A stretch of DNA of 64,000 nucleotides, from the IMG/VR virus record IMGVR_UViG_3300001598_001791, positions 1 through 64,000 of that record; one strand, given 5' to 3'. The position numbers and the translations under genes were made by a program. Position 1 is the first letter of the stretch, and the number at the start of each line of letters is the position of its first letter. Source of the stretch: a virus (taxonomy: Duplodnaviria > Caudoviricetes). This document shows, piece after piece, positions 1,216 through 64,000 of this stretch. The notes beneath the pieces were generated by a model that made no database searches, was not told the origin of the DNA, and worked only from the letters and a program-made list of their open reading frames with translations.

Positions 1216-1244
1216 TTTACAATTATAATAAAAGGTAGTATAAT
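1216..1244 (+). promoter_or_regulatory. sigma70/sigmaA-type promoter
   Basis: TTTACA-N17-TATAAT; the same architecture recurs at 32740, 32842 and 61592. Confidence 0.7.
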
Positions 1245-1361
1245 AAAAATATTATCTTTTTTATTGTATACTATTTTGTGGGTAGCGTTTTATGAGAACG
1301 AGATAAAGATGCCATAACATCGGCCACAACTTAAAAAAATATCTTTATGGAGGTATAAGAA

Positions 1362-2342
1362 ATGAAAAAATTAGATATTTTAATTCCACAATATAAAGAA
1401 ACAGATGAAATTGTTAAACCATTATTAGATAGTTTAGCAATTCAACAAAATGTTGACTTTAAAAAAATTGGTGTAATTATTTGTAATGACGGCACTGATG
1501 TTTACTTATCAGATGAATTATTGAAGTCATATCCATTTGATATTCAATATCACAAAGAGCCACATAGAGGAGTATCAGGAACTAGAAATGCTTGTTTAGA
1601 TTATTCTAAGGCAGAGTATGTAATGTTCTGTGACGCTGATGATATGTTCTATAATGCTTGTGGGTTATGGATTATTTTTAATGAAATGAATAAAAAGGGT
1701 GGGTTTGATAGCATGACTTCGTTATTTGTTGAAGAGGCCAGAGATGCTAATAAAAATGTTATCTATGTCAATAGGGAACAAGACTCAACCTTTGTTCATG
1801 GTAAAATTCATCGTAGAAAGTATTTATTAAAAGAAAATATCAGATGGAATGAAAAATTAACAATACATGAAGATTCATATTTTAATGTCCTTTGTCAGAA
1901 TTTAACAAAAAAATTTAAGTACTGTCAATCACCATTCTATTTATGGAAATGGAGAGATGCTTCTGTCTGCAGACATGACCCGAAATATATTTTAAAGACA
2001 TATAATAATCTTTTAGATGGCGTTGATGCTTTAGTTGATGAATTTGAAAGAAGGGGTAAAGATAAACATGCTAACCTCTATTGTTGTTCTGAGGTATTTG
2101 ATGCCTACTATACAATGAACAAGAAGGAATGGATTGATCAAGAGAACCAAGAATATAGAGATGCTGTTGAGAAACATTTTAGTGAATGGTTCAAGAAGTG
2201 GAAATATATTTGGGATAGAGTTCCTGAAAATGAAAGAATTCAATTATCAACCGGAATTAGACAACGTGGTGTTCAAGAAGGGTCTATGCTAATGGAAAAT
2301 ATTACAATGTCAGATTGGCTTGAACATATTCAATCATTATAG
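1362..2342 (+). CDS. GT2-family glycosyltransferase
   Basis: N-terminal ILIPQYKE, ICNDG, GVSGTRN, DxD motif FCDADD, HEDSYF; all 9 Trp codons are TGG. Confidence 0.85.
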   Translation: MKKLDILIPQYKETDEIVKPLLDSLAIQQNVDFKKIGVIICNDGTDVYLSDELLKSYPFDIQYHKEPHRGVSGTRNACLDYSKAEYVMFCDADDMFYNACGLWIIFNEMNKKGGFDSMTSLFVEEARDANKNVIYVNREQDSTFVHGKIHRRKYLLKENIRWNEKLTIHEDSYFNVLCQNLTKKFKYCQSPFYLWKWRDASVCRHDPKYILKTYNNLLDGVDALVDEFERRGKDKHANLYCCSEVFDAYYTMNKKEWIDQENQEYRDAVEKHFSEWFKKWKYIWDRVPENERIQLSTGIRQRGVQEGSMLMENITMSDWLEHIQSL

Positions 2343-2360
2343 AAAATTAAGATAAATATT

Positions 2361-2376
2361 TGCTAAAATTATTATA
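2361..2376 (+). promoter_or_regulatory. candidate phage late promoter motif TGCTAAA(A/T)TTA(A/T)TATA
   Basis: Near-identical intergenic copies at 14306, 23551, 33546, 35094, 40619 and 57755; a variant at 29905 lies inside intron 6. Confidence 0.65.
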
Positions 2377-2460
2377 AATAAAAGTATTTGAAATTGATAG
2401 TACTTATTAAAATAGAAGTACCTGGAAAAGATAGGTGAATATTTATTTAAAAAAATAGAT

Positions 2461-2496
2461 CCCTGTCTCTTCGAGTATGTAGAGATAGGGTTTTTT
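2461..2496 (+). terminator. intrinsic terminator
   Basis: CCCTGTCTCT/AGAGATAGGG stem followed by T6. Confidence 0.7.
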
Positions 2497-2513
2497 AATG
2501 TGAGGAATCTATC

Positions 2514-2804
2514 ATGTGTTTATTCATATATTTATTGAATATATTTGATTATTTATGCACAATGTTTTGAGTAAATAAATATGGTATTGAAATTGAAGCA
2601 AATCCTATTTCAAGATTTTTTATTCAAAATAATTTACTTGGATTTGTTAAGATAGTTATAGTTGGTATACTTCTTTATTATATAGAGAAGAAAAATAAAT
2701 TTAAGAAATTAAATATTTTTCTGTTAATTATTTATTTGATGTTAGCTGTATACCATATTTACTTATTAGTTATGACAGGATATTTTTTATGAAACAAGAA
2801 ATAA
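2514..2804 (+). CDS. small membrane protein, DUF5658-like (96 aa, code 4)
   Basis: GAGGA RBS; LNIFDYLCT...EANP motif plus hydrophobic segments; two in-frame TGA; absent from the code-11 ORF track. Confidence 0.6.
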
Positions 2805-12415: not shown

Positions 12416-12925
12416 ATGATTAATAATACTTTAGATAATAAGTGAGTTACATTATGAAAAAATAATGATCCATCAGTCAGTTTTGAGAGAAATTTTATTC
12501 AGTTAACTGAAGAGTTACCATCAGTATCCACATGTGGTAACAGAACAGTCATCTTGTCAATGACTGTTTCTTATTTAAACGAAATTGACGAAAGAGTAAT
12601 CAGTCCTATTTTAGTTTGCTACCATACATCAAGGTTAAATGAAATTTTATCAACAGGCGGTCTTAATTTTTCTATTTCAATGGTTACTGAAACGGGAATG
12701 GTCACTGGAACAAGAATATTCTATATTGACCCGTTTGTCAGAGATATTGAAAAGAAAGATCTAAAAAATATTTTTATTTCAGATTTCTTCATTCAATCGT
12801 ATGATGTAAATATTTTAGGTGATAACCAAGATGGACAGCTTAATCAACGAACAGCTTTTGGTTATATAAAGAATAGTATTTCTGTTGAAGGAATTTACTA
12901 CTGTTTAGTAGATGATATAGAATAG
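12416..12925 (+). CDS. hypothetical protein (169 aa, code 4)
   Basis: AGAGG RBS and ATG at 12416; two TGA upstream of the ORF-track start at 12554. Confidence 0.6.
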
Positions 12926-12936
12926 AGGAGTTTATT

Positions 12937-13413
12937 ATGAAATTAGATCAAGAGTTTATTAACCATTTATTATTACTCTTCGGGTTAATGATTGGTTTTA
13001 CTTCATTTAAAATAGCGTCGTGTAAACCATTCAAAGAAGATGGTGAAGAATTTAGTTGGAAAAAATTATTTATTGGAACTACAAGACAGTTAATTGTAAT
13101 TACTGGGTGTTGTATTGTTTATTTAGCAGGATGTCATTGTGGGAAAGATCTCTTACTTGTAGAGATTGGTGATACTACTTTAACAATTCAAGGTGCTATC
13201 GATGTAACTATCTTAGCAGTCTTAGCAGTTTATGCCACCAAGTATATTAAAAATTTGGCTATTTTTTGTGGTATCAAAGAAGAAGACAGTGAATCAACTG
13301 ATAATGAGTCATGTAACCACGGGAAACTAATTGGATACTTATATGGAACAAAAGAAGATGATTGTGGTATACAGACAACCTTTGAAGATGAAGATGATGA
13401 CTTGGTAGGATAA
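12937..13413 (+). CDS. probable holin
   Basis: Three hydrophobic segments and a charged C-terminus; immediately upstream of the CHAP lysin. Confidence 0.55.
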   Translation: MKLDQEFINHLLLLFGLMIGFTSFKIASCKPFKEDGEEFSWKKLFIGTTRQLIVITGCCIVYLAGCHCGKDLLLVEIGDTTLTIQGAIDVTILAVLAVYATKYIKNLAIFCGIKEEDSESTDNESCNHGKLIGYLYGTKEDDCGIQTTFEDEDDDLVG

Positions 13414-13414
13414 C

Positions 13415-14266
13415 ATGAAATTCACTAGGAGATATATAAAACCCACCAAGAAAGATCTATGCTATGTTTTGAGGTCTGATGGCGGATGAAATGATTGTGT
13501 AGTAGGTAAACCGACAGATAAGGAATGTAGATGTCTAAGTAATTGTGTTGGTTATGCTTCAGGTAGATTCAATGAAATTTATAATGAGTTAACTGATAAG
13601 ATCGGCTGTAATTTCCCTTACTTAAACTGTAATGCTGAAAACTTCATTGAAAGAGTAAATAAGAAGTATCCTTCTTTGATTATCTCCCAGACACCTAAGC
13701 CAGGTTCAATAATGGTTTGGGCAAAGGGTGAGGTTGGTGTAAGCGAAGATGGTGCTGGTCATGTTGCTATTGTAGAAGATATATTAGAAGTAAATTCAAC
13801 AGGAGAACCAGTGTCTATTAAAACTTCTGAGTCAAGCTATAATGGAGAAGCTTTTTTTAATAAAATAAGAAATAAAGGATCTGATGGCCGGTGGGGAATG
13901 TCATCAAAATATACTTTTAGAGGATTTATTTTGTGTCCAATCGAAGAAACTGATGAAATAGAATTACCTACTTCATTAAAGTCTAGAGATATCCTAAAAA
14001 ACCAAATATATGTTGGACCAATTAAATTGAGAATGCGTGATATGTCTTCCACTAAAGGTAATATGATAGGAATATGTGATAGATGTTCTTTCTATGATGT
14101 AATATCTGTTTGTAAAAAATCTGATTATACCTGGTATCAATTGTCTAGTAAAGTATACGTAGCTGGAGTTTCTGGTGTTTCGTATTATCCCTCAAAACAT
14201 AGTACGAAAAAACTTACTTCAATAACTACTTTATTTACTTCAATTAGAAATGCTTTAAAAAAATAA
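13415..14266 (+). CDS. CHAP-domain endolysin (283 aa, code 4)
   Basis: Catalytic NCVGYASGRF and AGHVAIVE motifs in one frame; in-frame TGA at 13487 precedes the catalytic Cys; possible C-terminal SH3-like domain. Confidence 0.8.
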
Positions 14267-46187: not shown

Positions 46188-46197
46188 GAGATAATTT

Positions 46198-49105: not shown

Positions 49106-49463
49106 ATTTCCAGATATGTTTAGTCGTACTAAAACAAATTTAGTAACTGACTATGACGCAACATTACAAAATTTAAAAATGTTATTATGGTCAGAAAAAG
49201 GAGAACTGTTTGGAGACCCTTATTATGGAACAGGTCTTAAAAAATATCTATTCGACCAAAATGATTACGTATTACAAGATATCTTAATTGATAATATCTA
49301 CACGGCAATATGTTTATTTATACCTCAAATAAAGATTGAGAGAAAAGATATAACCTTGGTAAAAGAAGAAAATGGTAAATTAACTATTACTATAAAAGCG
49401 ATAAATAGAGCTGACTTCACTACAAACCTATACTCAATAGTTTTACTTGAAGCTGAAGTTTAA
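49092..49463 (+). CDS. baseplate wedge protein (gp25-like)
   Basis: L..LL..EKGE..GDP.YG..L..YLF motif. Confidence 0.8.
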   Translation: MRSIKFPDMFSRTKTNLVTDYDATLQNLKMLLWSEKGELFGDPYYGTGLKKYLFDQNDYVLQDILIDNIYTAICLFIPQIKIERKDITLVKEENGKLTITIKAINRADFTTNLYSIVLLEAEV

Positions 49464-49499
49464 TCTATATATTATACAAATGAAAGGAAATTTGTAAAA

Positions 49500-52400
49500 A
49501 TGAAAGATCCTAATATCTCAGCAATGAGTTATACCTCAAAAGACTTTGGTCAAATTTATAAAGAGGCGCTTGATCTGGCTAAAGAATTAACAAACAGATG
49601 AGATCCTTCACAATCAAATGAAAGTGACCCTGGAGTTGTTCTTTTAAAAGAAGGTGCTTTTTTAACAGACCACAATAACTATAATATTGATAAAAATGTT
49701 TTAGAAAACTTTTTACCTAGTGCTACACAAGATAGATCTGTCCGTAATATTATGGAGATGAATGGCTATACACCAAGATATTATGTATCAGCTATGGGTA
49801 AAGTATCATTCAAATGGGAAAATCCAAATGCCACAAAAGGTGATTACTCAGGGACTAGCTTTACTATACCTAGATTTACCTTAGTAGTATCTGACGCTGA
49901 TGGAACTGTTTCATATACTCAAGCTGATGATCTAGCTATCTCGATAGATTATGAAAACCCATCTTCTGCCTCATTAGTATCATCATGTAACTTCATTGAA
50001 GGTACTTTACAAACATTAACGATAAATAACTCTGATACTGTTTTCTTGGAAAATATCGACGACAACAATAGAGTTTATTTACCTGAAACAATGGTTGCCC
50101 AAAATGGTGTTTATATCAGATACTCAAATGATTCTGAGCATAAAGAATATGGATTCTGGGAAAGAAATAATTATTTATCTACACAACCAGCCGGTTCTAG
50201 ATTATATAAAATTGATTATGACTCATTTAAAGGATTACCTTATATTGAATTCCCTTCAGATATTTCTAACATTATTTTAAGTGGGTTATTAGTTCAATAC
50301 ATTTCAACATCAGGTGAAGCCGGTAATGTTAGTGCTAACACTTTAGTTAATATTGTTACACCGACAGAATTTTATGATAGAGACGGATATTCTAGGTCAA
50401 CTGAGTACTTAACTTTAAATAACGTTTCAGCAATTACTAATGGCAAAGACCCTGAAACAATTGAAGAGATGTACCAATCGTTTAAAAAAGTTGTTGGTAC
50501 TTTCGATACTTTAGTTTCATGTAATGATTATAAAAATAAAATTAATTTATTGGATGATGGTGTCAATTATCTTGTATCAAATAACTATGTTACGGATAGA
50601 AGAACTGATTACAATAAATCAGCTAATGTAGTTACTTTTGATAGTAAAGGTGTTTATCAGGCTAATTTAAGTATTAAACCATGTTCACTAAGACTTAAAG
50701 GATCAGCTGATGAGTGTACTTCCATAGGTGATATGTACTATGATTCTGTCTCTAAAAAATTAAAAGTTAAAATTGGAGTCACTGAAGATAATTTTGAAAG
50801 TTGCGATACAATTAATTTAAATGACTTCTCTTTATTGACAGAGGCAATGACTCCATATGATTTAGTTGTTTACGCTTTAAAGAATTTTTCTCTTTCAGAT
50901 TATAATAGATCATATCCTTATAGGGCTTTACAAAATTCTTTTACTCCTATTTCATCTTCAGTTAGAAATGATTTAGAGAATTTAAATTATGGATATCTAA
51001 GTGATAGTAAATGTATTTGCCATACATTTAACGATCCTAAATCAGGTGAAGTTTACTGTTTTAAAAATTATGTACCATTAAATGTTACTATTATACCATA
51101 TAACAAAATTACTGCTGATGAAAAGTCTAATATTATAAATAATATTTATATTGCTTTGTCAGAAAACTTTAACCCTAGAAATATTGAATTCGGTGAAGAT
51201 TTAGATATTACAGCTGCAAAAGAAGTTATTCTAAATAGTGATAGCAGAATTAAAGATTGTAATATTGATTATAAATATGAAACCTATGCTATGAACAGTA
51301 TTTCTGGTAGTGATGGTATTTATGAAGAGAAAAAACTAAATGGTACTCTCACCGGATCTTCATCAGTATTACTACTTGATTTAGTTACTAAAAATATTTT
51401 AGCTGGTAGAGTCTGTTTATTTGAATTTGATGAAGACTTTACTTATGACTATGAGCAATCTGATTGTAAATTTATCGATAATGCTACATCATTTAAAACA
51501 GCACTCCCATTACCACTTAAACAGTCAGCCGTAAAAAGTGTAACAACTGCGAAAACAACTACAACAACTTCAGTCATTGATGGTTCTTCTAGTGGTTATA
51601 CAATTTACTATAATTTTAATGCACCTAACTTAGATTCACCTGAAAGTAGAGTAAATGTAACAAAGGGAACTTCATATACACTACAAACAGATGAAGATGG
51701 AGTATATGTTGACTCCTTTAGACTAGAAATTATTCAAGGCACTGGCACTGAAAGTAAAGTTATTAGTGATGTTACCTATAAAGCTTCACTTGACACTACA
51801 TATAGTTTCAGTTTAGATGATGCAAATATCATTAACACTGCTGATGATACATTAACTTCGATAACTGGTAAATTAACTATTGTTACTATTAGGGTTGATG
51901 CATCAGATGATGAAGGAACAGAGAACCTTAATTATACTTTAGATAAGAATGAATATATTCAAATCCTTTATCCAAATTACTACTCAACTGATACATATGG
52001 AATCTATGTTAATTATAGATATCAATCAACTGATCCAGACAGTATAATCAGAGCTAACACTGAACATACATTGAGATCTGATGAAAAACTAGTATTAGTT
52101 TATACAAATAATGGTGTTACTGTAACTGATGTACCTGTTACTGGTACTATCATTAGATCAAGTTTTGATATCAATCAAACTGATAAATTATCGGCAACAG
52201 GAACCAAAAAGAGTTGAACTGATTTAGATGGTACTTACCATGATAATGAAAAATTCATGTCATTGTCATCAAATCAAACTATTTCAAAACGTTCTCAATT
52301 TAGTACTATTCTAAATGGTACTAATATTAACTGTTATTGGATGGTTAATAATTCAACAAATACTCTATTCTCAAATAAAGGACTGAGTGAAGAAAGAGTT

Positions 52401-53807
52401 TTAGGCAATAATGAATATTTCATTTATACCAATTCAACTAAAGATGAGATGATGATTCTAGGTTCTGGGACTAAACTTTTGAAGTCTAGTAATGATAAAA
52501 ATAATTGGATAATTGATAAAGATACTACTCAAACTATTGAGTCTATTACTACAAACGGAATTACATCTTCAATTCCGTGGTCAGTTATGGACTTCTCACA
52601 AGCACCATTTGAGATAGTTGAAATGAATTTTATTACATTATCAGAAGGTGATTCTATTAAGATTAGCGGATGAGAAGGATTAAAATCAGGTGATAAGATT
52701 AATAACTCATGGGTATATTGTAATGGTACAATAGCCTATACGTCAGGTGGAACTACTACAATTTTACCAAAAGTTTCAAATTTTTATAAAATTAGAAGTA
52801 GACTTGATTTAGTTTGTGGCCCAACAACTCCACAAGAAATAATCTATCGAGGAACTGACGGAATAAACCAAGAAGTACATATTAACAGTACTGCCTTATC
52901 CGGGTATAAAATCCAGTCATCTATTCAATTAAATTTATTAGGTGATGAAAATATTGATGTTTCTGTATATACTCAAAATGGGATATCAATTAACATCTTA
53001 GGATATAAGACAGAAGAAAAAATGACAGCAGTATTAACTCCTGATGGATTAGACCCTATAAATCTAACTCCAGGTAGATCTGTTAATATTGATTATAATA
53101 AGTCATATCCAAATAGAAAACAAACTTATACATACACATACCCGTTCTATTATTTCAATTCAGCTGAACATGTTCGTGAATATCTTGTACCTGTTTATAT
53201 TGAAGGTGATGAAATTAACCTCAACGCTAAGATGCAGAAAAAGTCTGGAGAAGATAGTTGGGAAGATATTTATTTCATTGATTATAATGTTGATACTTCT
53301 TCAGTGCTTTCAAAAACTCTCACTGGAAATAACATGTATTTCTTATCACCGTCTACATCAGGAGGAACAACCCCTCTAGTTTATACAGGTGAATTAAGAT
53401 TAGTTCTAACATGGGAATTCCCGGAATCATTTACTGGAATGAAAAACTTACAAACTTTAATAGTTGATGATTTAACAGTTATTAAGGGTATTAATAATAA
53501 ATTATCTATTGATATTACTAATATAAATAAAACCAATATACTTTCAAGAATAAATGGTATTATTAGTGGATCTGATAAACCAAGTACAAAGTTCTATTAC
53601 TCATATAGACCAGATTCATCAATGGAAATTAATTTAGATAAATATTTGAGTTATACTATTAACAACAATCAGATAGTTTATGAAATGAAGGCCTTTGATA
53701 ATCCATTAATTATGTGAGATACAAATAACGTTGCCAATAAAATGACTATTGCTCAATTAGATTTGGCCAATTCTAGAATTGATACAGATAGTAACATGGT
53801 GGTTTAA
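49500..53807 (+). CDS. baseplate wedge/baseplate-J-like protein (gp6-like; 1435 aa, code 4)
   Basis: SYTSKDF...(TGA)D...ESDPG..L motif; three code-11 fragments (49752, 52257, 53022) join in one frame across four TGA. Confidence 0.75.
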
Positions 53808-53808
53808 T

Positions 53809-54453
53809 ATGATTGATGTTGTAAAAAATACTCCAAGTGAGTACAGTAAACAATCAAGAGATTTCCAGGTGATTGCAAGATTATATACAGCAATGTTCAA
53901 TTACACAAAGATGTATATTGATAATATGTCAGTGTGGAATACTAATATTGACGATAATCTTGCTTCACTTAGAGCAACTACGTTAAACCTAATTACTGAG
54001 CACCAATGAGATCTTTCTGATCTAGAGGCAATTACTTCTTGTTTTAAGTACTTAATTATCAGAAAGGGAACTATCGAGGCAATTAAGGCACTTATTTGTA
54101 TTTTAATGAAGGTTCAACATTTAGAAGGAACTGTTGATGACACTACGGTAACCTTTGAAAATAATAATCTAACAATTAGAATTGAAGATGCTCTAGTTAC
54201 GGTTGGCATTATTGAAGACCTATTTAAATATCTATTACCGGCAGGATTAACCTACAGAATTGTTAGATATAAATCAGTTAATATTAATGATTTACTAAAT
54301 ACCAACATTTATTACAATGATGAAAAAGTTAAATATAGTGATCTAAGTAGAGGTGATTATTTATATGTTGGAAATAATAACTCAAGTGACAGAATAATTA
54401 CTAGAACATACGTATATAATAATAGATGAGACCCTAGTTTGAAGGAGGAATAA
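53809..54453 (+). CDS. probable baseplate wedge (gp7/tail protein I-like; 214 aa, code 4)
   Basis: RKGT..AI motif; LLPAG..Y; two TGA. Confidence 0.55.
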
Positions 54454-54455
54454 TT

Positions 54456-54989
54456 TTGCCAAAAAAGAAAAAACAAATAACTTTATATAATGAAGTTAAA
54501 GAGGTTAAAGTTAAAGAAAACAATAATATAGCCGGTAATGTTAAAATAACTGTGGTTCAGGGTGGAAGAAAGATAAGATCTTTCACCCGCCACAATGAGG
54601 CAACACAGGCTTTGTGTGAATACATTAGAGATGCTCTTTTAGGTGATTATGTTATAGCCAAACGACCTGGAATAATTATCCCTTGTAGAAAAGTTGATGG
54701 TGTTTTAACTGAAATTTTCTCTGCCGGTATACCAGATGAAGGAGTCTTGGGAAGAACCAGCCCATCAACAGGATCAACTGATATCTGAGCAGGTGGTACT
54801 CTAAAATTTATCATACCTGAAACATCTTTAACATCTGGTATGTCCATAAATGGATTTAACCTTTACAGCAGAGGGTATGATAGAAAATTATTTGCTACTC
54901 TAGACTTAGGCGACTCTTCTATTATTGTAAGTGGAAACATAAGTCTAGAAATAGAATGAACAATGAAAGTTAGCCCAACAGTAGGCTAA
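54456..54989 (+). CDS. baseplate/fibre attachment protein (177 aa, code 4)
   Basis: GNV.I...N pattern; C-terminal IE(TGA)T strand; TTG start with GGAGG RBS. Confidence 0.5.
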
Positions 54990-55008
54990 GGAGAGGAAAA
55001 AATATTTT

Positions 55009-55806
55009 ATGAGTTATATATCATCTTCAAACGTTAGTGTGTTTCCTTCAACATATAGAAACCAATACCAGACAAGCAAGCTAACAAGTGAAAATAATTT
55101 TGTAAATATAATTAATGCCATTATCAATAGACCTAACGGTAGCTATGTAGTATCACATGAAAATAATGTATTACGATTAGTTATTCATGGTTATTATTTC
55201 GAAGTAACCAATTGGACAAAATCTCCAAATTTAGTTGCATCAATTAAAGTTGAAAATAACGGTTTCAGTTTGGTTAGACATGATAATTTATCAATTGATA
55301 ATTTAGATCAAAATTCAATTTTTTATGGCTTAGATATTTCAGAGGGTAATCCTGTTAATGGCTCTGATGAAAATTATACAACTTATTCATTACAAATAAC
55401 AGACTCATCTAATAATATTATTAACCAAGAAAGACTTACTACAGATGTTATCGAATGAGGTAAGTCAGGAAAAACGTTATCTACAAGATTAGATGAGCTT
55501 CAAGAGCAATTAGTTGTGGGAGATAATTCAGGTCTTACTTTATCATCTGACAAGAAAACGCTTGCTCTCAATCTTAAATATAAAAATAGCCTAGATAACT
55601 TAGGTAACAAAGGTGGTTCTGGTAATAAATTAATCTACTTCGATAACGATGGCGTTGTCAAAGATTCAACTTCTACAATAGGAACAGATCATCAAATTGT
55701 TTATGTGAATAATGGAACATTAACAGCAGGAGCTAAAATAACTATTAGTAATTCTAATCCATCTGGTGGAAATAACGGTGACATCTGGCTTAAATATGGA
55801 GGCTAG
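55009..55806 (+). CDS. fibre-associated protein (265 aa, code 4)
   Basis: One TGA; C-terminal ISNSNPSGGNNGDIWLKY fibre motif. Confidence 0.6.
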
Positions 55807-55811
55807 ATAGT

Positions 55812-57623
55812 ATGTCAATAAATGTTGTTATACATACATACGATACAGAATTATCAAGAAGTGGTAATGTTACTGGGTATCATTATGACTCTAGTGGAAC
55901 TTCAATTAAAACAATCAATATTCCATCAGGAACTATTAAAAAAACATATCAATGTAATTATGGAGATGTTTTATATTCATTAAAATATTCTCATGTGGGT
56001 TATACTATAGACCATTGATATGGAGAAATATCAACAGGATCTTCAGCTAGATCCACAGTATATTTACCAACAGAAGGTATAGTAAATATTGATATAACCT
56101 CTGATATGAAGGCTCTAGAGCTATGGCCAGAAGTTAATGCTAATACCTATACAGTAACTGCATCTGCTAGTGGAAGCGGTGGTTCTGTAAAACCTACTTC
56201 AACAACAGTAGAGTACAAAAAAACTGCTACATTTACAGCTAATGTAGATTCTGGATATGTAGTTGATTGTTGGTATTTTAATAATGCTCCTAAAACTTCG
56301 GCCGGAACTAGCTCAACGTATACTACTCCAGAAATAACAGAAAATAGTACTGTTAAAGTTGTATTTGCGAAAACCCAATTGAAGTATTATTTTTATGATA
56401 ACGGCCAAGAAGTAAAATCAGGTGATGGATACCTGGGTGAAACGATTAACTTTTCTAAGTATAAAATATCTAAAGATAATACTGTAACACAGAGAACTGG
56501 GTATAAGATGTCTTTTTATGATTATCAAGGTGGAAGTAAAATTGGTGAGTCTGACATATCTGGTGGACAAATTATAACATCATATACTTTGTCAGGTTGA
56601 AATAACGGGTTTGGTAATTTTTTTGAGGCAGATGGAATTGAAACTATAAAACCACTATCAGGAAATCGAGAATTCTATGCACAATGAACAGAGTCTTCTA
56701 CATCTACTAATAACAAATTACAATCAATACTAGATTCACCTTCTAGATTAGGGTATACTTTTAATTTCTGGAAGTGAAATGGTGAACAGCTATCAAAAGG
56801 ACAAGAGATTACCGAAGATGGTAATCAAAATGCTTATGGTGATTGGACTCCACGTATATATAATGTATCATTTGCACTTGGATCTTCTGATACAACAATT
56901 GGAAAGTTACCAGAACCAACTTGAGGAACTGGATCAAAACCGTCTACTCAAACAAAAACATTCGGTACTGCTATAGGGAAACCTGAAGTTATACCTGAAA
57001 GATTTGGTTATACTTTTGTTGGTTGGCATATTGATAAAAATGTATCACCAACAGATTCTAGTATAATTACTGGTACTACTATTGATGATAGATTCTTTAC
57101 CTCAAATTCAACTACTACTGTAACATTATATACTATTTGGAAACCAAAAGAATTAACAGGTAGAAAAAATTATTACTATAACGGTGTCTCTTATACTGAA
57201 GACTTCTCCTACACTATTGAAAGTGTTAATTCTAGAGGTGAAAGAATTTATGATGTAGGATTGCCGGATAAGGGATCTACCGACGGTGAGTGGGTTTTTG
57301 CTGGATGAGTAAAAGATAAACCTTCTAGTTGAACAGATAAAAAGGGAAGATATAGAAATCTTATCGAAGTAGGAAGTGAGCCTAAATTACCTTATGAAAT
57401 TAAGGTAATCACTATCACTGACTGGGACAGTAAAGACACAGAACAATTTTATGGCATCTGGTCTTCAAGTGGTAAATATGTTAAAATAAATGGTGAATGA
57501 GTTCAAGTTCCGGTAGCATATGTAAACGTTAATGGTGAATGGAAATTAATGTATGATTCAGATGGTTGTTCATTCTATGTTAATGTTAATGGAAACTGAA
57601 AACCTGAAGCAGGTGGAAATTAA
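55812..57623 (+). CDS. tail fibre/receptor-binding protein with InlB-B-like repeats (603 aa, code 4)
   Basis: Nine in-frame TGA; P.R.GYTF..W repeats; terminal YV(K/N)(I/V)NG.W triplet. Confidence 0.7.
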
Positions 57624-57769: not shown

Positions 57770-57937
57770 ATGGAAAAATACAAAGCAACAGACAGAATTG
57801 TGGCGTCAATAAAGCCAGACAACCCTCTAATGAAACAACTAATTAGGTATTTAGAGGAAAATGACTACTCTATGACAAGTGTAGTTAAAAAAGCTTTGAA
57901 GATGTACCTTGACAGTGAGGAGAATAAACAAAAATAA
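57770..57937 (+). CDS. small ribbon-helix-helix-like protein (55 aa)
   Basis: Short strand-helix-helix pattern, S.TSVVKKAL..YL; not in the ORF track. Confidence 0.45.
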   Translation: MEKYKATDRIVASIKPDNPLMKQLIRYLEENDYSMTSVVKKALKMYLDSEENKQK

Positions 57938-58439
57938 TTTTAAGTCAAGAAATCATTCAAAGTTTCTATTGCAATTTCATGTGATTTTAGTTTGTAAATA
58001 CAGATTAAAATTATTGGATAGTAATGTTTCAATCGAAATAAAAAAATTATCTGATGAAATTGTGCAAAAGCATGGTTGTTCTATTAAGTATGTTGAGTCT
58101 GATTTAGATCATATTCACTACTTAATAGAAACATTGCCAACAACAAATCTTTCAAATCTAGTAAGAGTACTTAAACAATACACTACATATCACATTTGAA
58201 AAAGATTTGATTTTTCAAACTATTTATGAAAAGAACATACTTTTTGAACTGATGGCTATTTTATTAGCTCAATAGGTAATGTGTCAGAAATGACAATAAG
58301 AGAGTATATAGAAAACCAAGGGAGAAATCATGGTCAAAAAACAAAGCATACAAATTTAAACTTGAACCAACTAAAGATCAAGCTATTTTGATCAATAAAA
58401 CTTTTGGTTGTGTTCGCTTTATTTACAATAAAATGCTAG
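57909..58439 (+). CDS. tnpA: IS200-type Y1 transposase (code 4)
   Basis: FHVILVCKYR, HUH motif DHIH, KEHTF(TGA)TDGYF..SIG, catalytic Tyr in IREYIENQ; C-terminus extended by an extra A near 58340. Confidence 0.85.
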
Positions 58440-59459
58440 CTGACAAAAAAAGAAGCTTGAGAAAAAGATAAAATAAATTTAAAAGTTTCTCCAGCACAAT
58501 ATAAAGAAGAATTTGAATGGCTGTCTGAAGTAGATAGTCATGCACTTGGTAATGCTCAATTAGATTTGAATGCCGCATATTCTAATTTTTTCAGAGGACT
58601 CAAAAAGAAACAAAATATTGGATTCCCCAAATTTAAGTCAAAGAAATTTTCGAAAAGAAGTTATACAACTAATATAGCGAATAAAGACTCAACATCAATA
58701 AGGCTTGAAGATGATCATTTCTTAGTTCTTCCTAAGCTAGGTAGAGTAAGATTTAGAAAATCTAGGGATGTTGTTGGTAAAATAAAATCAGCTACAATTT
58801 TTCAAAATGCAGTTGGAAAATACTTTGTAAGTATCTTAGTCGAATACGAATGAGAAAAACCAAATTATCAAATAAACTTAGAAAATTCAATTGGTCTAGA
58901 TTATTCATCTCCTGATTTCTATGTAGATAACTTTGGAAACTCTCCTGAAAAGATTAAATTCTTTAGAGAGTATGAAGATCAGTTAGCTAAAGAACAAAGA
59001 AAATTAGCAAACATGAAATTAAACTCAAACAATTATCAAAAGCAAAGAAAGAAAGTTGCAAAAGTATATGAGAAGATAGCCAATTCTCGTTTAGATTTTT
59101 GTCATAAACTTTCTACACAACTTGCTAACCAATATGATATTGTTTGTGTTGAAGATATAAATTTAAGAGCTATGTCTCAATGTCTTACTTTAGGCAAAGC
59201 AACTATGGACAATGTGTTTGGAATGTTTAGATCTTTTCTACAGTACAAACTAGAAGATAGAGGTAAAGAATTTGTAAAGATAGACAAATGGACTCCAACA
59301 TCTACGGTATGTTCAGTTTGTGGAACGTATCATAAAGATATAGTCTCTAATCTCTCTGTTAGAGAATGGACATGTCCAGATTGTGGGACTATCCACAACA
59401 GAGATATCAACGCTGCTGAAAATATTAGATTAGCTGGAATTAGTTTACTCACAACATAA
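58330..59459 (+). pseudogene. tnpB: TnpB RNA-guided nuclease gene with two +1 frameshifts in A-runs
   Basis: KAYKFKLEP and GCVRFIYN N-terminus; RuvC IGLD, VEDIN and RDINAA; CSVC/CPDC Zn finger; frame changes at 58336-58341 and 58445-58451; two TGA. Confidence 0.8.
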
Positions 59460-59592: not shown

Positions 59593-59919
59593 ATGAATAT
59601 AGAAAAGAAAATTCCATTAATTGTTTGCCCTGTTTGCGGACAAACCTATGTTCCATCTGAAGTATTTATCCCTGAATCATTTTTTGGAGATCAAAAAGAA
59701 GTTATTAAAGATAACCAAGGAAAAGTTGAATTCTACACTGGGGATGACATGGATCTTGAAGAAGAATATATTTGTGATGGATGCGGTACTAAATTGAAGA
59801 TAATTGCAGATTTAAGTTTTGATGTTATACCTGAAGATAAATTTGATGATGAATATACTGTTGAAATAAATAAACCTGCTAAATTAAAACTAAGAGAAAC
59901 CGACTTATTTAATGATTAA
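59593..59919 (+). CDS. Zn-ribbon protein
   Basis: CPVCG and CDGCG; AAGGAG RBS. Confidence 0.7.
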   Translation: MNIEKKIPLIVCPVCGQTYVPSEVFIPESFFGDQKEVIKDNQGKVEFYTGDDMDLEEEYICDGCGTKLKIIADLSFDVIPEDKFDDEYTVEINKPAKLKLRETDLFND

Positions 59920-61591
59920 AATAACTGAGATACCATCAATAAAGGTAGTAGGTGAAACGTCACTATCAATAGAGTTTCCATTTGATGAAAAGGTTATTAA
60001 AATTATAAAAGAAGCAGGAGATTCTGTTTGGAATAAAAAATTAAAAATATGGGAATTACCAACAAATAAATTATCATTTTTAATAGATAACTTAACATAT
60101 ATTAGTGATATTGAAATAAATTTATTACCGGATATTGAGAAAACTAAAACATTATTAAATAAAAATTATAAAACAACACCTTTTAGTTATCAAGAAGAGG
60201 GAATACAATACATTGTTGATAATAAAAATATTTTACTCCTGGATCAGCCAGGTACTGGAAAGACATTGCAAACAATCTATGCCGCACAAGAGTTAAAAGA
60301 AAAAGAAGGTTATGGACATTGTCTTGTTATCTGTGGGATTAATTCATTAAAAACCAATTGGGAAAAGGAGATTCATAAACACTCAGAACTTGATTGTATA
60401 ATTATAGGTAAACAAATAACCAAAAAAGGTACTGTTAAATATGCATCTATCAAAGAAAGAGCTGATCAATTATATAATAAAATAGATGAATTCTTCGTTA
60501 TTATAAACATAGAATCATTGAGAGATAACTTAGTTATAGATGCTATTTTAAATAGTGTTAATAAGTGGGATATGATTGTAATAGATGAGTGTCATCGAGT
60601 AAAAGATCCTGGAAGTATTCAAGGTAAGAATTTCTTAAAATTATCTAAGGTAGGTAAGTCACATTTAGGTTTAACTGGTACCTTATTAGTAAATGAGCCA
60701 ATGGACTCATATGTACCTTTAAAATTCATTGGAAAAGAAAAGGGTACCTGGACTAATTTTAAACAATTCTATTGTATTTATGAACAAAAATTTGGACACA
60801 ATCAAATAGTAGGATACAAAAATCTAGATGTATTAAAAGAAGAAATAGGTGAATGTTCAATCAGGCGAACAAAGGATCGTTTAGGATTTCAATTACCGCC
60901 AAAAACTATTTTACCTGAATATATTGAAATGAGTGATAGGCAGTTAAAATTTTATGATGATATTTCTAAAGGTGTTTTAGATGAAGTAGACCGTGTTGAG
61001 ATAAAAACAACATCATTATTAGGTTTGGTTATCAGATTAAGGCAGGCCTCAACGTGCCCATCTGTCTTAACAACTTCAATTGAAATAGATTCATGTAAAG
61101 TAAAAAGAGCGATTGAACTAGTTGATGAGATAGTAGGTAATGGTGAAAAAGTTGTTATATTTTCTACTTTTAAAGAGCCATTGAATATCTTAAAAAATAT
61201 ATTATCAAAATATAATCCATTATTGGGTACGGGTGACATCTCAGATGATGAAGTATCCCAGAATATAGATAAATTTCAAACAGATGATAAATATAAAGTA
61301 TTTCTAGGAACATTTTCTAAAACATCAACAGGTGTAACCTTAAATGCTGCTAGTTATATGATTATGCTTGATGAACCGTGGACATATGCCCTATTTGAGC
61401 AGGCAACAGATAGAATTCACCGTATTAATAACGTTAATCCGGCTTTTATTTATGTATTAATAGCTGAAAACACTATTGATGAAAGAGTATTCTCATTAGT
61501 TGAAAAGAAAAAAGAATTAAGTGATGACATAATTGATGATTCATTACAAAGAGAAGAACTGTTAGAATTAATAAAAGGAAGTAAATTCTAG
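59912..61591 (+). CDS. SNF2-like superfamily 2 helicase
   Basis: LDQPGTGKT, IDECH, LTGT..N, RRTK, LIRLRQ, KVVIFS, GVTLNAA and QATDRIHR motifs. Confidence 0.9.
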   Translation: MIKITEIPSIKVVGETSLSIEFPFDEKVIKIIKEAGDSVWNKKLKIWELPTNKLSFLIDNLTYISDIEINLLPDIEKTKTLLNKNYKTTPFSYQEEGIQYIVDNKNILLLDQPGTGKTLQTIYAAQELKEKEGYGHCLVICGINSLKTNWEKEIHKHSELDCIIIGKQITKKGTVKYASIKERADQLYNKIDEFFVIINIESLRDNLVIDAILNSVNKWDMIVIDECHRVKDPGSIQGKNFLKLSKVGKSHLGLTGTLLVNEPMDSYVPLKFIGKEKGTWTNFKQFYCIYEQKFGHNQIVGYKNLDVLKEEIGECSIRRTKDRLGFQLPPKTILPEYIEMSDRQLKFYDDISKGVLDEVDRVEIKTTSLLGLVIRLRQASTCPSVLTTSIEIDSCKVKRAIELVDEIVGNGEKVVIFSTFKEPLNILKNILSKYNPLLGTGDISDDEVSQNIDKFQTDDKYKVFLGTFSKTSTGVTLNAASYMIMLDEPWTYALFEQATDRIHRINNVNPAFIYVLIAENTIDERVFSLVEKKKELSDDIIDDSLQREELLELIKGSKF

Positions 61592-61620
61592 TTTACTTCC
61601 TTTTTATTTTGTTGTATAAT
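61592..61620 (+). promoter_or_regulatory. sigma70/sigmaA-type promoter
   Basis: TTTACT-N17-TATAAT with TG upstream of the -10. Confidence 0.7.
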
Positions 61621-61647
61621 GATAAGGTAGTAATTAGAGAGGTAGAT

Positions 61648-62190
61648 ATGAGTGATGTATTGGTTATTCATCTAGATGACAGAAGCACAGATTTTTTAAA
61701 ATTAATCTATAAAGATAAAAATTATGATATTATAAATGATGGTAATATGAGAAATAGTGAGTTAGTAGATCAAATTAGAAATCATAATAAAATTATTATG
61801 ATGGGTCATGGTCTTCCTTATGGGTTAATTAATGTAAATAGAGGACCTAAAAATTTGAATTTATTTTTTATCAATGACTCACATGCCGACTTATTAAGAG
61901 AAAAAGAAACTGTTTCTATATGGTGTTTCTCAGATGAGTATTTTAGTAGAAATACTATTAAAGGTTTTCATACAGGGATGATCATATCAGAAACTTCAGA
62001 AGAACGTATGGTTTTAAATTATGAACCACTTAATAAAGATGAATTGCTTGATAATATGAATTTTATGGCAACTATATTTAGTGAATGTATTGAGTTATCT
62101 CCTGAAGAGATAAGGTCTTATATGCTAACTAATTATAATAGACATGATCCTGTTAGTGAATTTAATAGAAAAAACATGATTGTTATTTAG
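61648..62190 (+). CDS. hypothetical protein, possibly clan CD peptidase-like
   Basis: AGAGG RBS favours ATG at 61648 over TTG at 61609; IIMMGHG...VSIWC motif. Confidence 0.6.
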   Translation: MSDVLVIHLDDRSTDFLKLIYKDKNYDIINDGNMRNSELVDQIRNHNKIIMMGHGLPYGLINVNRGPKNLNLFFINDSHADLLREKETVSIWCFSDEYFSRNTIKGFHTGMIISETSEERMVLNYEPLNKDELLDNMNFMATIFSECIELSPEEIRSYMLTNYNRHDPVSEFNRKNMIVI

Positions 62191-62202
62191 TAGGTGAGAT
62201 AG

Positions 62203-62973
62203 ATGTTAGAAGATGTATATAAAAGTTATAGAAAACTTGCAGATGAGGTAAGTTGGAAAAAGTATAATATCAATGAATTATTTTTTAAAACAATAGAATA
62301 TGAAAATACTGATTTGTATGAAAAATACTATGCAGGTGTTATTTGTAGAGTATGGGGTTATTCTGGTAAAGTGTTTAGATCAGTTAACCGTCATATACCA
62401 TTTGATCAATGTTATGATATTGTAATAGATGCAGTAAATTATGTGTTATCTAAAAGAGTTTGGGAAAGTGAGAATAGTTCACTATATGGTGATAAATCAG
62501 CCCCTGATAAAGCTTTTCATATTGCCCTTAGGAGACAGAGATCCATTATCCTTTCTAGCCTTACAGCTGATAAAAGGCAGTCTAATTTTAATAATTTAAG
62601 TATAGATTCTTTTAGAGAAGAATATAATGATGCCTCTGATGGGTTACTAATATTCAATCAAACAGAATACTCAGATAATACTAAAATCAGAAGTTTAATA
62701 ACTCATTATTTTGATCATAATTATCCTGTAAAAGGTTTTGCTTTAGATTTCATTTGTTTTGGGAATTCAGATCAATTTTCTACTGATAGAATAATCAAAC
62801 AAATAAAGGAAATAAATTGTAATGAATATAATTATTACAACTTAGTTTACGGGATATCAAAACAACAATATAATAGATATGTTAATGAAATTAAACATAC
62901 TAGTAAACAGATTATAAATTATCAAATAAAGGGTTTACTATATGAGTTAAGAAAGGAGTATGTTAATGCGTAA
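62203..62973 (+). CDS. putative sigma-factor-like protein
   Basis: Region-2-like CYD.V.DAV.Y.L...W followed by KR..NF..LSID; weak, by-eye call. Confidence 0.35.
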   Translation: MLEDVYKSYRKLADEVSWKKYNINELFFKTIEYENTDLYEKYYAGVICRVWGYSGKVFRSVNRHIPFDQCYDIVIDAVNYVLSKRVWESENSSLYGDKSAPDKAFHIALRRQRSIILSSLTADKRQSNFNNLSIDSFREEYNDASDGLLIFNQTEYSDNTKIRSLITHYFDHNYPVKGFALDFICFGNSDQFSTDRIIKQIKEINCNEYNYYNLVYGISKQQYNRYVNEIKHTSKQIINYQIKGLLYELRKEYVNA

Positions 62974-63790
62974 TATTGATGCAAGATTTTTTGTAATTCA
63001 TGGGTGGATGATGAGTAAATTAGGTTTATGCGGATGTGATCGTGACGTTTATTCAATTATATATGGTTTCTCACAAGATGGTGAAAGTGACTATCATGGT
63101 AGTATCGGATATCTATCAGATCTCACTCAATACTCAAAAAGATCATGTGGTAACTCGTTAAAATTTCTAACTGACTCAAAATTAGTAATTAAATACTGGG
63201 AACCTAATGCTAAGTCTGCTACCTATAAAATTAATTTTAATATTATTAATAATTTCAATAATGAAGATAATTCTGGCAATGAAGATACTTCCTCTCTACC
63301 AGAAAATACTTCTGGTGAACAAGAAGATACTTCTGGTATAACGGAAAATACTTCCTACAATAATATAGATATAAAAAATAATAATAAAATTATAAATAAT
63401 ACTGATTCTCTTTTAGAAAATAATAAATATATTAAAGAAAAGAGTTTACAAGAGACTGTCGATGAGGTGATTGATTTTATGAACACTACGTGCCATACCT
63501 CATTTAAGAAAACAACCAATGGGACTAAGCGGAAAATTAAATCACTAATAAAACAAGGTTTTAGTTTACAAGATATGAAAAATGTTATATTATGTAAATA
63601 TGAACAGTGGGGAAAGAAACCTATTAAATTTAGTAATGGCCAAATGAGTGATGCCTATCTAAGGCCAGATACTTTATTCAGTGATAAATTTGAAAGTTAT
63701 CTATCTGAATACCAAAAGAATACCCCAAAACAACGTTCAAATGAAAATAATATCGATATCAATAATATAGAAATAATTGATGAGTATTAA
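62960..63790 (+). CDS. replication initiator-like protein (N-terminal HTH, C-terminal TIGR02220-like domain)
   Basis: IYSIIYGFSQDGE..Y.GS..YL; VIDFMN...F...LI..GF...D..YLRPDTLFS.KFESYL. Confidence 0.75.
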   Translation: MLMRNIDARFFVIHGWMMSKLGLCGCDRDVYSIIYGFSQDGESDYHGSIGYLSDLTQYSKRSCGNSLKFLTDSKLVIKYWEPNAKSATYKINFNIINNFNNEDNSGNEDTSSLPENTSGEQEDTSGITENTSYNNIDIKNNNKIINNTDSLLENNKYIKEKSLQETVDEVIDFMNTTCHTSFKKTTNGTKRKIKSLIKQGFSLQDMKNVILCKYEQWGKKPIKFSNGQMSDAYLRPDTLFSDKFESYLSEYQKNTPKQRSNENNIDINNIEIIDEY

Positions 63791-63801
63791 AGGAGGTAAC
63801 C

Positions 63802-64000
63802 GTGGATAGTAGTAAATGTTGGTTAAAGAATGATTGCAGTTGTGTTGATTGTGATTCTCCTAGTTGTATAAGGTTAGTAAAATTAGATTATTTATATACT
63901 AATGCCAATATCTCACTGAATCAAAGATATGATGTAAAATTAAAAATAATTTCAGGTGTGAATAATGTTGATAGTGAATCATTTAAACGATTAGGAGATA
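63802..64000 (+). CDS. 3'-truncated protein, possibly a DnaC-like helicase loader
   Basis: AGGAGG RBS, GTG start, Cys-rich N-terminus, follows the initiator. Confidence 0.45.
   Translation, partial: MDSSKCWLKNDCSCVDCDSPSCIRLVKLDYLYTNANISLNQRYDVKLKIISGVNNVDSESFKRLGD

What the first reader, a model, noticed from the sequence alone, without database searches (positions are those of the whole stretch)
1216..64000. TGA usage is partitioned by expression class, suggesting a phage-driven code switch in a walled, probably code-11 host
The GT2 gene under a host-type TTTAC(A/T)-N17-TATAAT promoter has 9/9 Trp as TGG, and the replication block 59593-64000 has 14/14. The most abundant structural genes (capsid, portal, protease, tube) also lack TGA. 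Lysins, baseplate, fibres, terminase, homing endonucleases and the IS carry many. In AT-rich constitutive code-4 bacteria (Mycoplasmatales) TGA is the preferred Trp codon, and those hosts lack peptidoglycan, whereas this phage encodes two CHAP hydrolases and a holin. The pattern matches stop-codon-recoded gut phages in which early genes stay readable in the host code and late genes need phage-supplied UGA decoding.
Basis: inference. Interest (0 to 1): 0.8.

Follow-up and report, generated by a model that had tools for sequence, protein, structure and literature searches.

The report
TGA-as-tryptophan phage sparing early genes
This is about half the genome of a gut or rumen phage that spells tryptophan with the stop codon TGA in many late genes but hardly ever in its DNA-replication genes; this trick is already published for phages of normal-code bacteria, so it is a clean new example and not a new principle.

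Summary
With TGA read as a sense codon, structural, lysis and packaging genes carry 53 TGA against 125 TGG. The replication block 59593-73565 carries 1 against 50 (Fisher P=4e-6), GT2 carries 0:9, and homing endonucleases plus the IS carry 16:7. TGA aligns with conserved Trp, not Gly. Every other A/G-ending codon pair is 72-92% A-ending in all gene classes, and early and late genes share one codon usage (r=0.985). TGA is therefore specifically kept out of early genes, which a code-4 host would not explain.

The split recurs in about 13 relatives that are only 56-64% identical (late 132:127, early 26:220). The contig is about 47% complete and has no tRNA. Three recoded relatives encode a tRNA(UCA). 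In one it sits right after the TGA-free early block, and in another it lies 70 nt before a phage tryptophan-tRNA ligase gene. Six standard-code relatives have none. The host was not identified, but lysins, ribosome-binding sites and cultured relatives point to walled Bacillota.

This matches the published 'Agate' TGA-recoded phages (Borges et al.), and this scan has noted the pattern before on other DNA. One addition: the major capsid gene has 0 TGA against 51 TGG across 12 recoded relatives.

The parts
1216..1244 (+). Sigma-70-type promoter-like site TTTACA-N17-TATAAT upstream of GT2
   Evidence: It matches 11 of 12 consensus positions. The motif TTTACN-N16-18-TATAAT occurs 9 times on the + strand of the contig against 0.6 expected from shuffles. 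All six intergenic copies precede ORFs without TGA.
1362..2342 (+). Family 2 glycosyltransferase, 0 TGA : 9 TGG
   Evidence: Pfam PF00535, E=2e-11; codon counts.
2514..2804 (+). Small protein with three hydrophobic segments, 2 TGA : 0 TGG
12416..14266 (+). Lysis cassette: 169-aa protein (2:0), holin-like 158-aa protein with three hydrophobic segments (0:1), CHAP endolysin 13415-14266 (1:3)
   Evidence: CHAP PF05257, E=1e-9; hydropathy scan; counts.
17966..21071 (+). Split large terminase: N part 3:2, C part 1:4, with a GIY-YIG homing endonuclease gene 18881-19567 (6:1) between them
   Evidence: PHROG hits and tblastn to relative G001; counts.
21099..25852 (+). T4-type portal (0:5), 151-aa protein, prohead protease (0:3)
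   Evidence: phrog_213 and phrog_207; PF07230 listed for the portal; counts.
25887..32561 (+). gp23-like major capsid gene broken by group I introns. Exons have 0 TGA and at least 4 TGG. Intron ORF 27574-28293 has 3:1 and ORF 31427-32428 has 2:3.
   Evidence: Rfam RF00028 matches; exon matches to intact capsid proteins of relatives.
38656..40572 (+). Tail sheath (1:7) and tail tube (0:4)
   Evidence: phrog_23 and phrog_4542; counts.
41882..57623 (+). Baseplate, tail-lysin and fibre module with many TGAs: 43705-45141 has 3:2, CHAP tail lysin 48059-49105 has 7:12, the 1435-aa protein has 4:8, and the fibre-like 55812-57623 has 9:10
   Evidence: synteny with relatives.
57909..59459 (+). IS200/IS605 element: TnpA 4 TGA : 0 TGG, TnpB 1:2
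   Evidence: PF01797, PF01385 and PF07282. Three TnpA TGAs align with Trp in 75-81 of about 82 homologues, which spell it TGG.
59593..64000 (+). Start of the TGA-free replication block (SNF2-type helicase, two unknowns, replication initiator, DnaC-like loader): 0 TGA : 14 TGG. The block runs on to 73565 beyond the window, 1:50 in all.
   Evidence: PHROG hits; counts.

Best explanation
The contig is roughly half of a ~150-165 kb T4-like myophage of a walled, standard-code Bacillota host from a gut or rumen. The phage reads UGA as tryptophan.

Genes translated before the code change, or independently of it, stay readable in both codes. These are the replication and nucleotide-metabolism genes and probably the promoter-bearing GT2. 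They use neither TGA sense codons nor TGA stop codons. Late genes (packaging, tail, baseplate, fibres, lysis) have drifted part of the way from TGG to TGA. They can be completed only when a phage UGA-reading tRNA-Trp is present. That tRNA is inferred to lie in the missing half, probably a few kb beyond the right end.

Decoding probably stays partial because it competes with host RF2. This would explain why the proteins needed in the largest amounts, above all the major capsid protein, remain TGA-free. Selfish elements (homing endonucleases, the IS) approach the mutational equilibrium of about 70-80% TGA.

What is shown and what is inferred:
- Shown: the codon distribution, TGA=Trp, the recurrence of the split across relatives, and suppressor tRNA and trpS genes in relatives.
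- Inferred: a suppressor in this phage, the host's code, timing, and partial efficiency.
For: 1. TGA=Trp. Three TnpA TGAs align with Trp in 75-81 of about 82 homologues. Against phage relatives, 22 of about 40 aligned TGA positions are Trp and none of the frequent partners is Gly.
2. The partition. Late 53:125, replication block 1:50 (P=4e-6), mobile elements 16:7, GT2 0:9.
3. It is not compositional. Lys, Glu, Gln, Leu(TTR) and Arg(AGR) are 72-92% A-ending in every class, yet Trp is 29% in late genes, 4% in early genes and 70% in mobile elements. Early-late RSCU correlates at r=0.985, against 0.993 for two halves of the late set.
4. TGA is never a stop here: the stops are TAA 50 and TAG 31. 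The standard-code relative G001 ends 26 of 108 genes in TGA.
5. Clade-level replication without this genome: late 132:127 against early 26:220, P=8e-24. In L110 the late side is 54:6 and the early side 0:22. G004 shows the same gene-level pattern, including a recoded resolvase.
6. Decoding machinery. A tRNA(UCA) is present in recoded relatives G004, G006 and G007 and in none of six standard-code relatives, which carry 9-26 tRNAs each. In G004 it lies directly after the TGA-free early block, 3.7 kb past the exonuclease gene; this contig ends 1.0 kb past its own exonuclease gene. In G006 a TGA-free trpS (TIGR00233, 321 bits) starts 70 nt after the tRNA(UCA).
7. The host looks walled and Gram-positive. 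There are two CHAP domains and a holin-like protein. SD motifs precede 54 of 61 genes. The nearest cultured portals come from Streptococcus, Listeria and Bacillus myophages. The relative L106 has SH3_3, holin_6_1 and XkdX families. Four genomes holding TnpA relatives (a Roseburia, two 'Bacilli' MAGs and a Ruminococcus MAG; the Bacilli MAG L012 is among the closest at 61% identity) have rpoB without in-frame stops.
8. Dosage layer. The major capsid gene has 0:51 across 12 dereplicated recoded relatives, against 131:143 for its head-module neighbours, P=2e-13.
Against: No tRNA of any kind was found in the 78.4 kb. ARAGORN, ARAGORN with introns allowed, and Rfam all drew a blank, and there is no RF1 or trpS either. 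UGA decoding by this phage is therefore an extrapolation from relatives that are only 49-59% identical in the helicase.

Two of the five long recoded relatives also lacked a detectable tRNA(UCA). The host is not identified: there were no spacer-like matches in 405 genomes searched. No expression data could be obtained, so 'early' and 'late' rest on gene function and promoter-like motifs.

The early block is not absolutely TGA-free in relatives (helicase 10:72, the 256-aa protein 10:28). GT2 alone is only marginally different from late genes (P=0.06).
Confidence: 0.8

Rival explanations
1. The host itself uses code 4 (UGA=Trp, no RF2), as Mycoplasmatales do, and the phage simply follows its host's code.
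For: TGA is never used as a stop. No suppressor tRNA was found in the contig. Mobile elements use TGA for 70% of Trp codons, close to what a free synonymous codon would show.
Against: A code-4 host gives no reason to keep TGA out of replication genes. Here they have 1:50, and in relative L110 0:22 beside late genes at 54:6, with identical usage of all other codons. Late genes sit at 29% TGA while comparable A/G pairs sit at 72-92% A. The phage has CHAP lysins and a holin, and its relatives infect walled Bacillota. Sister phages use TGA as a stop. A recoded relative carries its own tRNA(UCA) plus trpS.
Confidence: 0.04
2. The replication block is a recent import from a standard-code phage, so its lack of TGA reflects history and not selection.
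For: Phage genomes are mosaic, and standard-code relatives exist in the same family.
Against: Early and late genes share codon usage (r=0.985). They are about equally diverged from the standard-code relative G001: 30-51% against 28-53% amino-acid identity. The same split recurs in about 13 relatives only 56-64% identical to this phage. Single genes inside the block are recoded in more than one genome: the resolvase in this phage and in G004, and the 256-aa protein in L107 and L109.
Confidence: 0.04
3. There is no temporal switch. UGA is decoded weakly and constantly, either by a phage tRNA made from the start or by leaky host tRNA-Trp. TGA is then tolerated only in genes whose products are needed in small amounts or whose truncation is harmless.
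For: The major capsid gene, a late gene, is as TGA-free as the replication genes: 0:51 across the clade. Portal and protease are also low (13:47 and 4:17). In-frame TGAs show no bias toward the 5' end of genes, as a pure gate might favour. In this genome TGA is followed by a purine in 48 of 53 cases against 81 of 125 for TGG (P=4e-4). From general knowledge, that context favours suppression over release.
Against: Replication proteins such as primase or the helicase loader are not needed in large amounts, yet they are TGA-free. In G004 the suppressor sits at the end of the early block, which fits delayed supply. The purine context effect is weak in relatives (77% against 70%, P=0.04). This rival overlaps with the best explanation, because both layers may act together.
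Confidence: 0.1

Closest known systems
Agate clade of TGA-recoded gut and rumen phages (Borges et al., bioRxiv 10.1101/2021.08.26.457843; later published in Nature Microbiology, from my own knowledge)
   Same: Both show TGA=Trp in structural and lysis genes, replication genes in standard code, and intron homing endonucleases preferentially spelled with TGA. Both have a recoded protein just upstream of the lysis cassette and a recoded membrane protein. Genomes are about 127-154 kb, the source includes cattle rumen, close standard-code relatives exist, and only a minority of recoded genomes have a detectable suppressor. All of these features are seen here or in this phage's relatives.
   Different: Clade membership is defined by a terminase tree that I could not reproduce, because no Agate sequences are held. 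Here the relative G001 still uses TGA stops freely (24%), whereas the paper's standard-code relative had almost lost them. The strict exclusion of TGA from the capsid gene is not mentioned in that paper: the word 'capsid' does not occur in it.
Code-change module of Jade phages (suppressor tRNA, TrpRS, RF1; same paper)
   Same: The recoded relative G006 has a tRNA(UCA) followed after 70 nt by a TGA-free trpS.
   Different: No RF1 was found in G000 or in G004-G007. None of the module is present on this contig.
TAG- or TGA-recoded crAss-like and Lak phages (cited in Borges et al.; the metaproteomic proof for TAG=Gln is listed as PMC9523058)
   Same: Late genes carry the reassigned stop codon, early genes avoid it, and a phage suppressor tRNA does the decoding.
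   Different: These are unrelated lineages with Bacteroidota hosts, and most use TAG=Gln.
Constitutive code 4 of Mycoplasmatales, and code 25 phages of Absconditabacteria
   Same: TGA is a sense codon.
   Different: In those systems every gene class uses TGA, and in code 25 TGA is Gly. Here TGA is Trp, is below equilibrium, and is excluded from early genes and the capsid gene.

Membership tests
Stop-codon-recoded (TGA to Trp) phages of standard-code hosts | In-frame TGA at positions that are Trp in homologues, and longer, contiguous genes under code 4 | tested here: met
   Searches give the Trp alignment. Plus-strand ORF coverage is 0.785 under code 11 and 0.902 under code 4.
Stop-codon-recoded (TGA to Trp) phages of standard-code hosts | Uneven use: structural and lysis genes recoded, early or replication genes readable in the standard code | tested here: met
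   53:125 against 1:50, P=4e-6. The clade without this genome gives 132:127 against 26:220.
Stop-codon-recoded (TGA to Trp) phages of standard-code hosts | Phage-encoded UGA-reading tRNA, with or without an aaRS or release factor | tested here: inconclusive
   None was found in this contig, which is about 47% complete. It is present in relatives G004, G006 (with trpS) and G007, and absent from six standard-code relatives.
Stop-codon-recoded (TGA to Trp) phages of standard-code hosts | The host uses the standard code | not testable with these tools
   The evidence is only indirect: codon-equilibrium and partition arguments, lysins and a holin, Bacillota-type relatives, and no spacer-like match in 405 genomes.
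Agate clade (Borges et al.) | Placement in the Agate clade of the large-terminase tree with at least 95% bootstrap | not testable with these tools
   No Agate reference sequences are held. Only descriptive features agree.
Phage of a constitutively code-4 host | TGA used in all gene classes near the level of other A-ending codons | tested here: not met
   Trp is 4% TGA in early genes and 29% in late genes, against 72-92% A-ending for the other NNR pairs.
Code 25 phages (TGA=Gly) | TGA aligns with Gly in homologues | tested here: not met
   Trp dominates. Gly appears once among about 82 TnpA homologues at one position and is not among the frequent partners.

The most novel reading that the evidence does not exclude
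In this phage family UGA decoding is never fully efficient, so TGA density works as a dosage dial as well as a timer. The major capsid gene is kept completely TGA-free (0:51 Trp codons in 12 recoded relatives). Portal and protease are low, terminase, adaptor, fibres and lysins are high, and selfish elements sit near mutational equilibrium. A related point is that an IS200/IS605 whose transposase needs UGA=Trp would be locked to recoded phages and silent in the host.
Probability: 0.4. Interest if true: 0.5.

Novelty: new member of a known kind. Interest (0 to 1): 0.3.

Why it matters
The practical point is annotation. Under code 11 about a quarter of this contig's genes are truncated, and the contig must be called with code 4.

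Biologically it adds a well-controlled example of phage-driven stop-codon reassignment. It includes an internal control that earlier descriptions did not spell out: all other A/G-ending codon pairs are 72-92% A-ending in early and late genes alike. It also gives a clade-wide gene-by-gene table.

The strict absence of TGA from the capsid gene suggests that suppression competes with termination throughout infection. That is testable, and it bears on how such code changes evolve and on using these tRNA and TrpRS pairs as tools.

Tried and rejected
- Closest portal relative: the contig of P0002 (66% identical) is not on record, and the metagenome scan did not recover it.
- Records behind L105 and L106 are not held, so they could not be searched whole for tRNAs.
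- No near-identical record exists in the phage collection.
- Hidden suppressor: ARAGORN with introns and with lowered thresholds, and Rfam at E<=0.05 over all 78 kb, found only the capsid group I introns. This followed a lead from earlier notes about intron-split tRNA(UCA) genes.
- The ORF-less units at 32.57-32.87 kb are too short to be tRNAs and match no tRNA family.
- RF1 was found in none of five records.
- Spacer-like matches: 4 genomes plus 401 Lachnospiraceae gave only short matches of 76-96% identity at chance level.
- The idea that in-frame TGAs cluster near gene starts is rejected: median relative position is 0.59 against 0.57 for TGG.
- The purine after TGA is strong here but weak in relatives, so I do not build on it.
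- I first took L105 for a standard-code phage because its portal has no TGA; gene-by-gene counts showed it is recoded.
- My first ORF call gave dCMP deaminase four TGAs; they are out of frame in dUTPase.


Full report
**What the sequence is.** The window is the first 64 kb of a single 78,431-nt virus record with 30.8% G+C. CheckV completeness is given as 47%. Nearly all genes lie on the + strand. In order they are:
- a family 2 glycosyltransferase;
- fibre-like proteins;
- a lysis cassette (holin-like protein plus CHAP endolysin);
- a split large terminase with a GIY-YIG endonuclease gene between the halves;
- a T4-type portal, a prohead protease, and a gp23-like capsid gene interrupted by group I introns;
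- sheath, tube and a baseplate module with a second CHAP protein, then fibres;
- an IS200/IS605 element.

From 59.6 kb onward comes a replication and nucleotide-metabolism block: SNF2-type helicase, initiator, DnaC- and DnaB-like proteins, primase, SSB, a split PolA, a thymidylate-synthase-like protein, dUTPase, dCMP deaminase, clamp, resolvase and exonuclease.

**TGA is a sense codon and means Trp.** Plus-strand ORF coverage rises from 0.785 under code 11 to 0.902 under code 4. Three TGAs of the IS200 transposase align with Trp in 75-81 of about 82 homologues, and those homologues spell it TGG. Against phage relatives, 22 of about 40 aligned TGA positions are Trp. That is a similar share to TGG positions (95 of about 150), and Gly is not among the frequent partners. 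Code 25 is therefore excluded.

**The partition.** I used gene coordinates checked against family hits and relatives. All counts are TGA:TGG.

| Gene class | TGA:TGG | Test |
|---|---|---|
| Structural, lysis and packaging genes | 53:125 | reference class |
| Replication block 59593-73565 | 1:50 | P=4e-6 vs late |
| Homing endonucleases, intron ORFs and the IS | 16:7 | P=3e-4 vs late |
| GT2 | 0:9 | P=0.06 vs late |
| Capsid exons, portal, protease and tube | 0:16 | P=0.004 vs other late genes; grouping chosen after seeing the data |

It contains only three in-frame TGAs: one in an NTP-pyrophosphohydrolase-like gene and two in the resolvase. One of the resolvase TGAs aligns with Trp in a relative. 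Four further apparent TGAs were an artefact of my ORF call. They lie out of frame in the 3' end of a dUTPase gene that I had missed. A resolvase is plausibly a late, packaging-related function, as for T4 endonuclease VII (from my own knowledge).

**Why this is selection against TGA and not composition or history.** In every gene class the other two-fold A/G codon pairs (Lys, Glu, Gln, Leu TTR, Arg AGR) are 72-92% A-ending. A freely synonymous TGA should therefore make up about 80% of Trp codons. It makes up 70% in mobile elements, 29% in late genes and 4% in early genes.

Three further points argue against a recent foreign origin of the replication block:
- Early and late genes have the same usage of all other codons (r=0.985, against 0.993 for two halves of the late set).
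- The early block is the most AT-rich part of the contig.
- Both modules are about equally diverged from the standard-code relative G001.

TGA is also never used as a stop: the contig's stops are TAA 50 and TAG 31. G001 ends 26 of 108 genes in TGA and only 2 in TAG. Early genes thus avoid TGA in both senses. This is what genes that must be read correctly under either code would do.

**Relatives.** The portal and helicase belong to a large family of uncultivated phages with contigs up to about 160 kb. The more distant members, about 50% identical in the helicase, use the standard code. The nearer ones, 56-64% identical, are TGA-recoded.

I counted Trp codons in matches to this phage's proteins across 13 dereplicated recoded relatives. 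Six late families give 132:127 and eleven early families give 26:220, P=8e-24. The extreme case is L110, with 54:6 upstream of the helicase and 0:22 from it onward. Late genes at equilibrium beside TGA-free early genes in one genome is not what a code-4 host or a recent host jump would produce.

G004 is syntenic with this contig from the capsid gene to the exonuclease gene. It repeats the pattern gene by gene, including a recoded resolvase at 3:1.

**Who decodes UGA.** No tRNA, intron-split tRNA, RF1 or trpS was found in the contig. Among five long recoded relatives, three carry a tRNA with anticodon UCA, in a loop context (CUUCAAA) that differs from their own tRNA-Trp(CCA) only at the wobble base. 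Six standard-code relatives with 9-26 tRNAs each carry none.

In G004 the tRNA(UCA) lies directly after the TGA-free early block, 3.7 kb beyond the exonuclease gene. This contig ends 1.0 kb beyond its own exonuclease gene. The expected site therefore falls just off the end, although gene content between the two points is not conserved.

In G006 (93% complete) a full-length, TGA-free tryptophan-tRNA ligase gene (TIGR00233, 321 bits against a cut-off of 177) starts 70 nt after the tRNA(UCA). This resembles the 'code change module' described for Jade phages.

**Host.** It was not identified. The indirect evidence points to a walled Bacillota:
- Two CHAP domains and a three-segment holin-like protein next to one of them.
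- Shine-Dalgarno motifs before 54 of 61 genes, against 20% at random positions.
- Sigma-A-like promoters with extended -10 elements.
- Nearest cultured portals from Streptococcus, Listeria and Bacillus myophages at about 27% identity.
- SH3_3, holin_6_1 and XkdX families in a recoded relative.
- IS relatives mostly in gut Lachnospiraceae. The four genomes tested, including two small 'Bacilli' MAGs, have rpoB without in-frame stops.

One relative's record name (STEW19) suggests a cattle rumen source; that is an inference from the label only. Searches for spacer-like matches found nothing beyond chance.

**A second layer.** Among late genes of this contig alone, heterogeneity is not significant (P=0.08). 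Across the clade it is clear: the major capsid gene has 0:51 in 12 dereplicated recoded relatives.

| Head-module family | TGA:TGG |
|---|---|
| Major capsid protein | 0:51 |
| Terminase N part | 36:14 |
| Terminase C part | 33:37 |
| Adaptor | 18:13 |
| Portal | 13:47 |
| Protease | 4:17 |

The capsid gene against the other head-module families (131:143) gives P=2e-13. It also holds where the capsid gene has no introns (L105), so intron homing is not needed to explain it.

My reading is that suppression stays partial, in competition with RF2. On that view, TGA is not tolerated in the protein needed in the most copies, whose truncated forms could poison assembly. This is inference. The Borges preprint does not mention the capsid, and one literature search found no report of this. 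I do not claim it is unpublished.

In this genome TGA is followed by a purine in 48 of 53 cases against 81 of 125 for TGG (P=4e-4). Relatives show only 77% against 70%.

**Comparison with the known.** Borges et al. (bioRxiv 10.1101/2021.08.26.457843) describe TGA-recoded Agate phages from cattle and other animal guts. Their features are these:
- Genomes of about 127-154 kb.
- An intron endonuclease family, a tail protein upstream of the lysis cassette and a membrane protein preferentially spelled with TGA.
- Very close standard-code relatives.
- A detectable suppressor tRNA in only about 35% of code-4 genomes.

Everything found here fits that description. Formal clade membership needs their terminase tree. 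Earlier notes of this scan report the same phenomenon on other genomes.

**Verdict.** It is a new member of a known kind, of modest interest apart from the capsid-gene nuance.

Noticed in passing
window 25987-31415: Rfam finds eight or nine group I intron matches, six of them above the gathering score, all inside the gp23-like capsid gene. The exons match intact capsid proteins of relatives. The standard-code relative G001 also has an interrupted capsid gene.
   Followed up: partly
window 57909-59459: The IS200/IS605 element has a TnpA that spells all three conserved Trp residues as TGA, so it could not be translated in a standard-code cell. Its TnpB ORF is short (297 aa) and seems to lack the usual N-terminal part. 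The nearest TnpA relatives (50-61% identity) are in gut Lachnospiraceae and use TGG.
   Followed up: partly
G000 73613-74502 (L001 14613-15502): A dUTPase gene ends in TAATG, overlapping the start of the dCMP deaminase gene. A naive longest-ORF call extends the deaminase upstream through four out-of-frame TGAs.
   Followed up: yes
window 1216, 32740, 32842, 61592; G000 66757, 73566: TTTACN-N16-18-TATAAT occurs nine times on the + strand against 0.6 expected. Six copies are intergenic, three of them with a TTGTTGTATAAT extended -10, and all six precede ORFs without TGA.
   Followed up: partly
whole contig, compared with relative G001 (L099-L104): Stop-codon use has shifted. This phage has TAA 50, TAG 31 and TGA 0, while the standard-code relative has TAA 80, TGA 26 and TAG 2. 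TAG appears to have taken over the role of TGA.
   Followed up: partly
window, late genes 2514-57623: In-frame TGA is followed by G or A in 48 of 53 cases, against 81 of 125 for TGG (P=4e-4). In 12 relatives the effect is weak (77% against 70%).
   Followed up: partly
L239 18184-19315 (G006 38184-39315): In a 166-kb recoded relative that is 93% complete, a tRNA(UCA) is followed after 70 nt by a TGA-free tryptophan-tRNA ligase gene, and a block of about 30 further tRNA genes follows.
   Followed up: yes
L194 1498-1596 (G004): The tRNA(UCA) of the syntenic relative is 99 nt long, with a long variable arm and G73. ARAGORN labels it SeC under code 11. Its charging identity is unknown.
   Followed up: no
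G000 67583-70779 (L001 8583-11779): The PolA gene is in two ORFs with about 690 nt between them. Relatives have a GIY-YIG or other endonuclease gene at this place, with 5:0 and 6:0 TGA:TGG. Rfam finds no intron here.
   Followed up: no
window 62203-62973: This 256-aa protein of the early block has 0:3 here, but its homologues in L107 and L109 have 3:0 and in G004 1:4. Recoding of single genes inside the early block therefore varies between relatives.
   Followed up: partly
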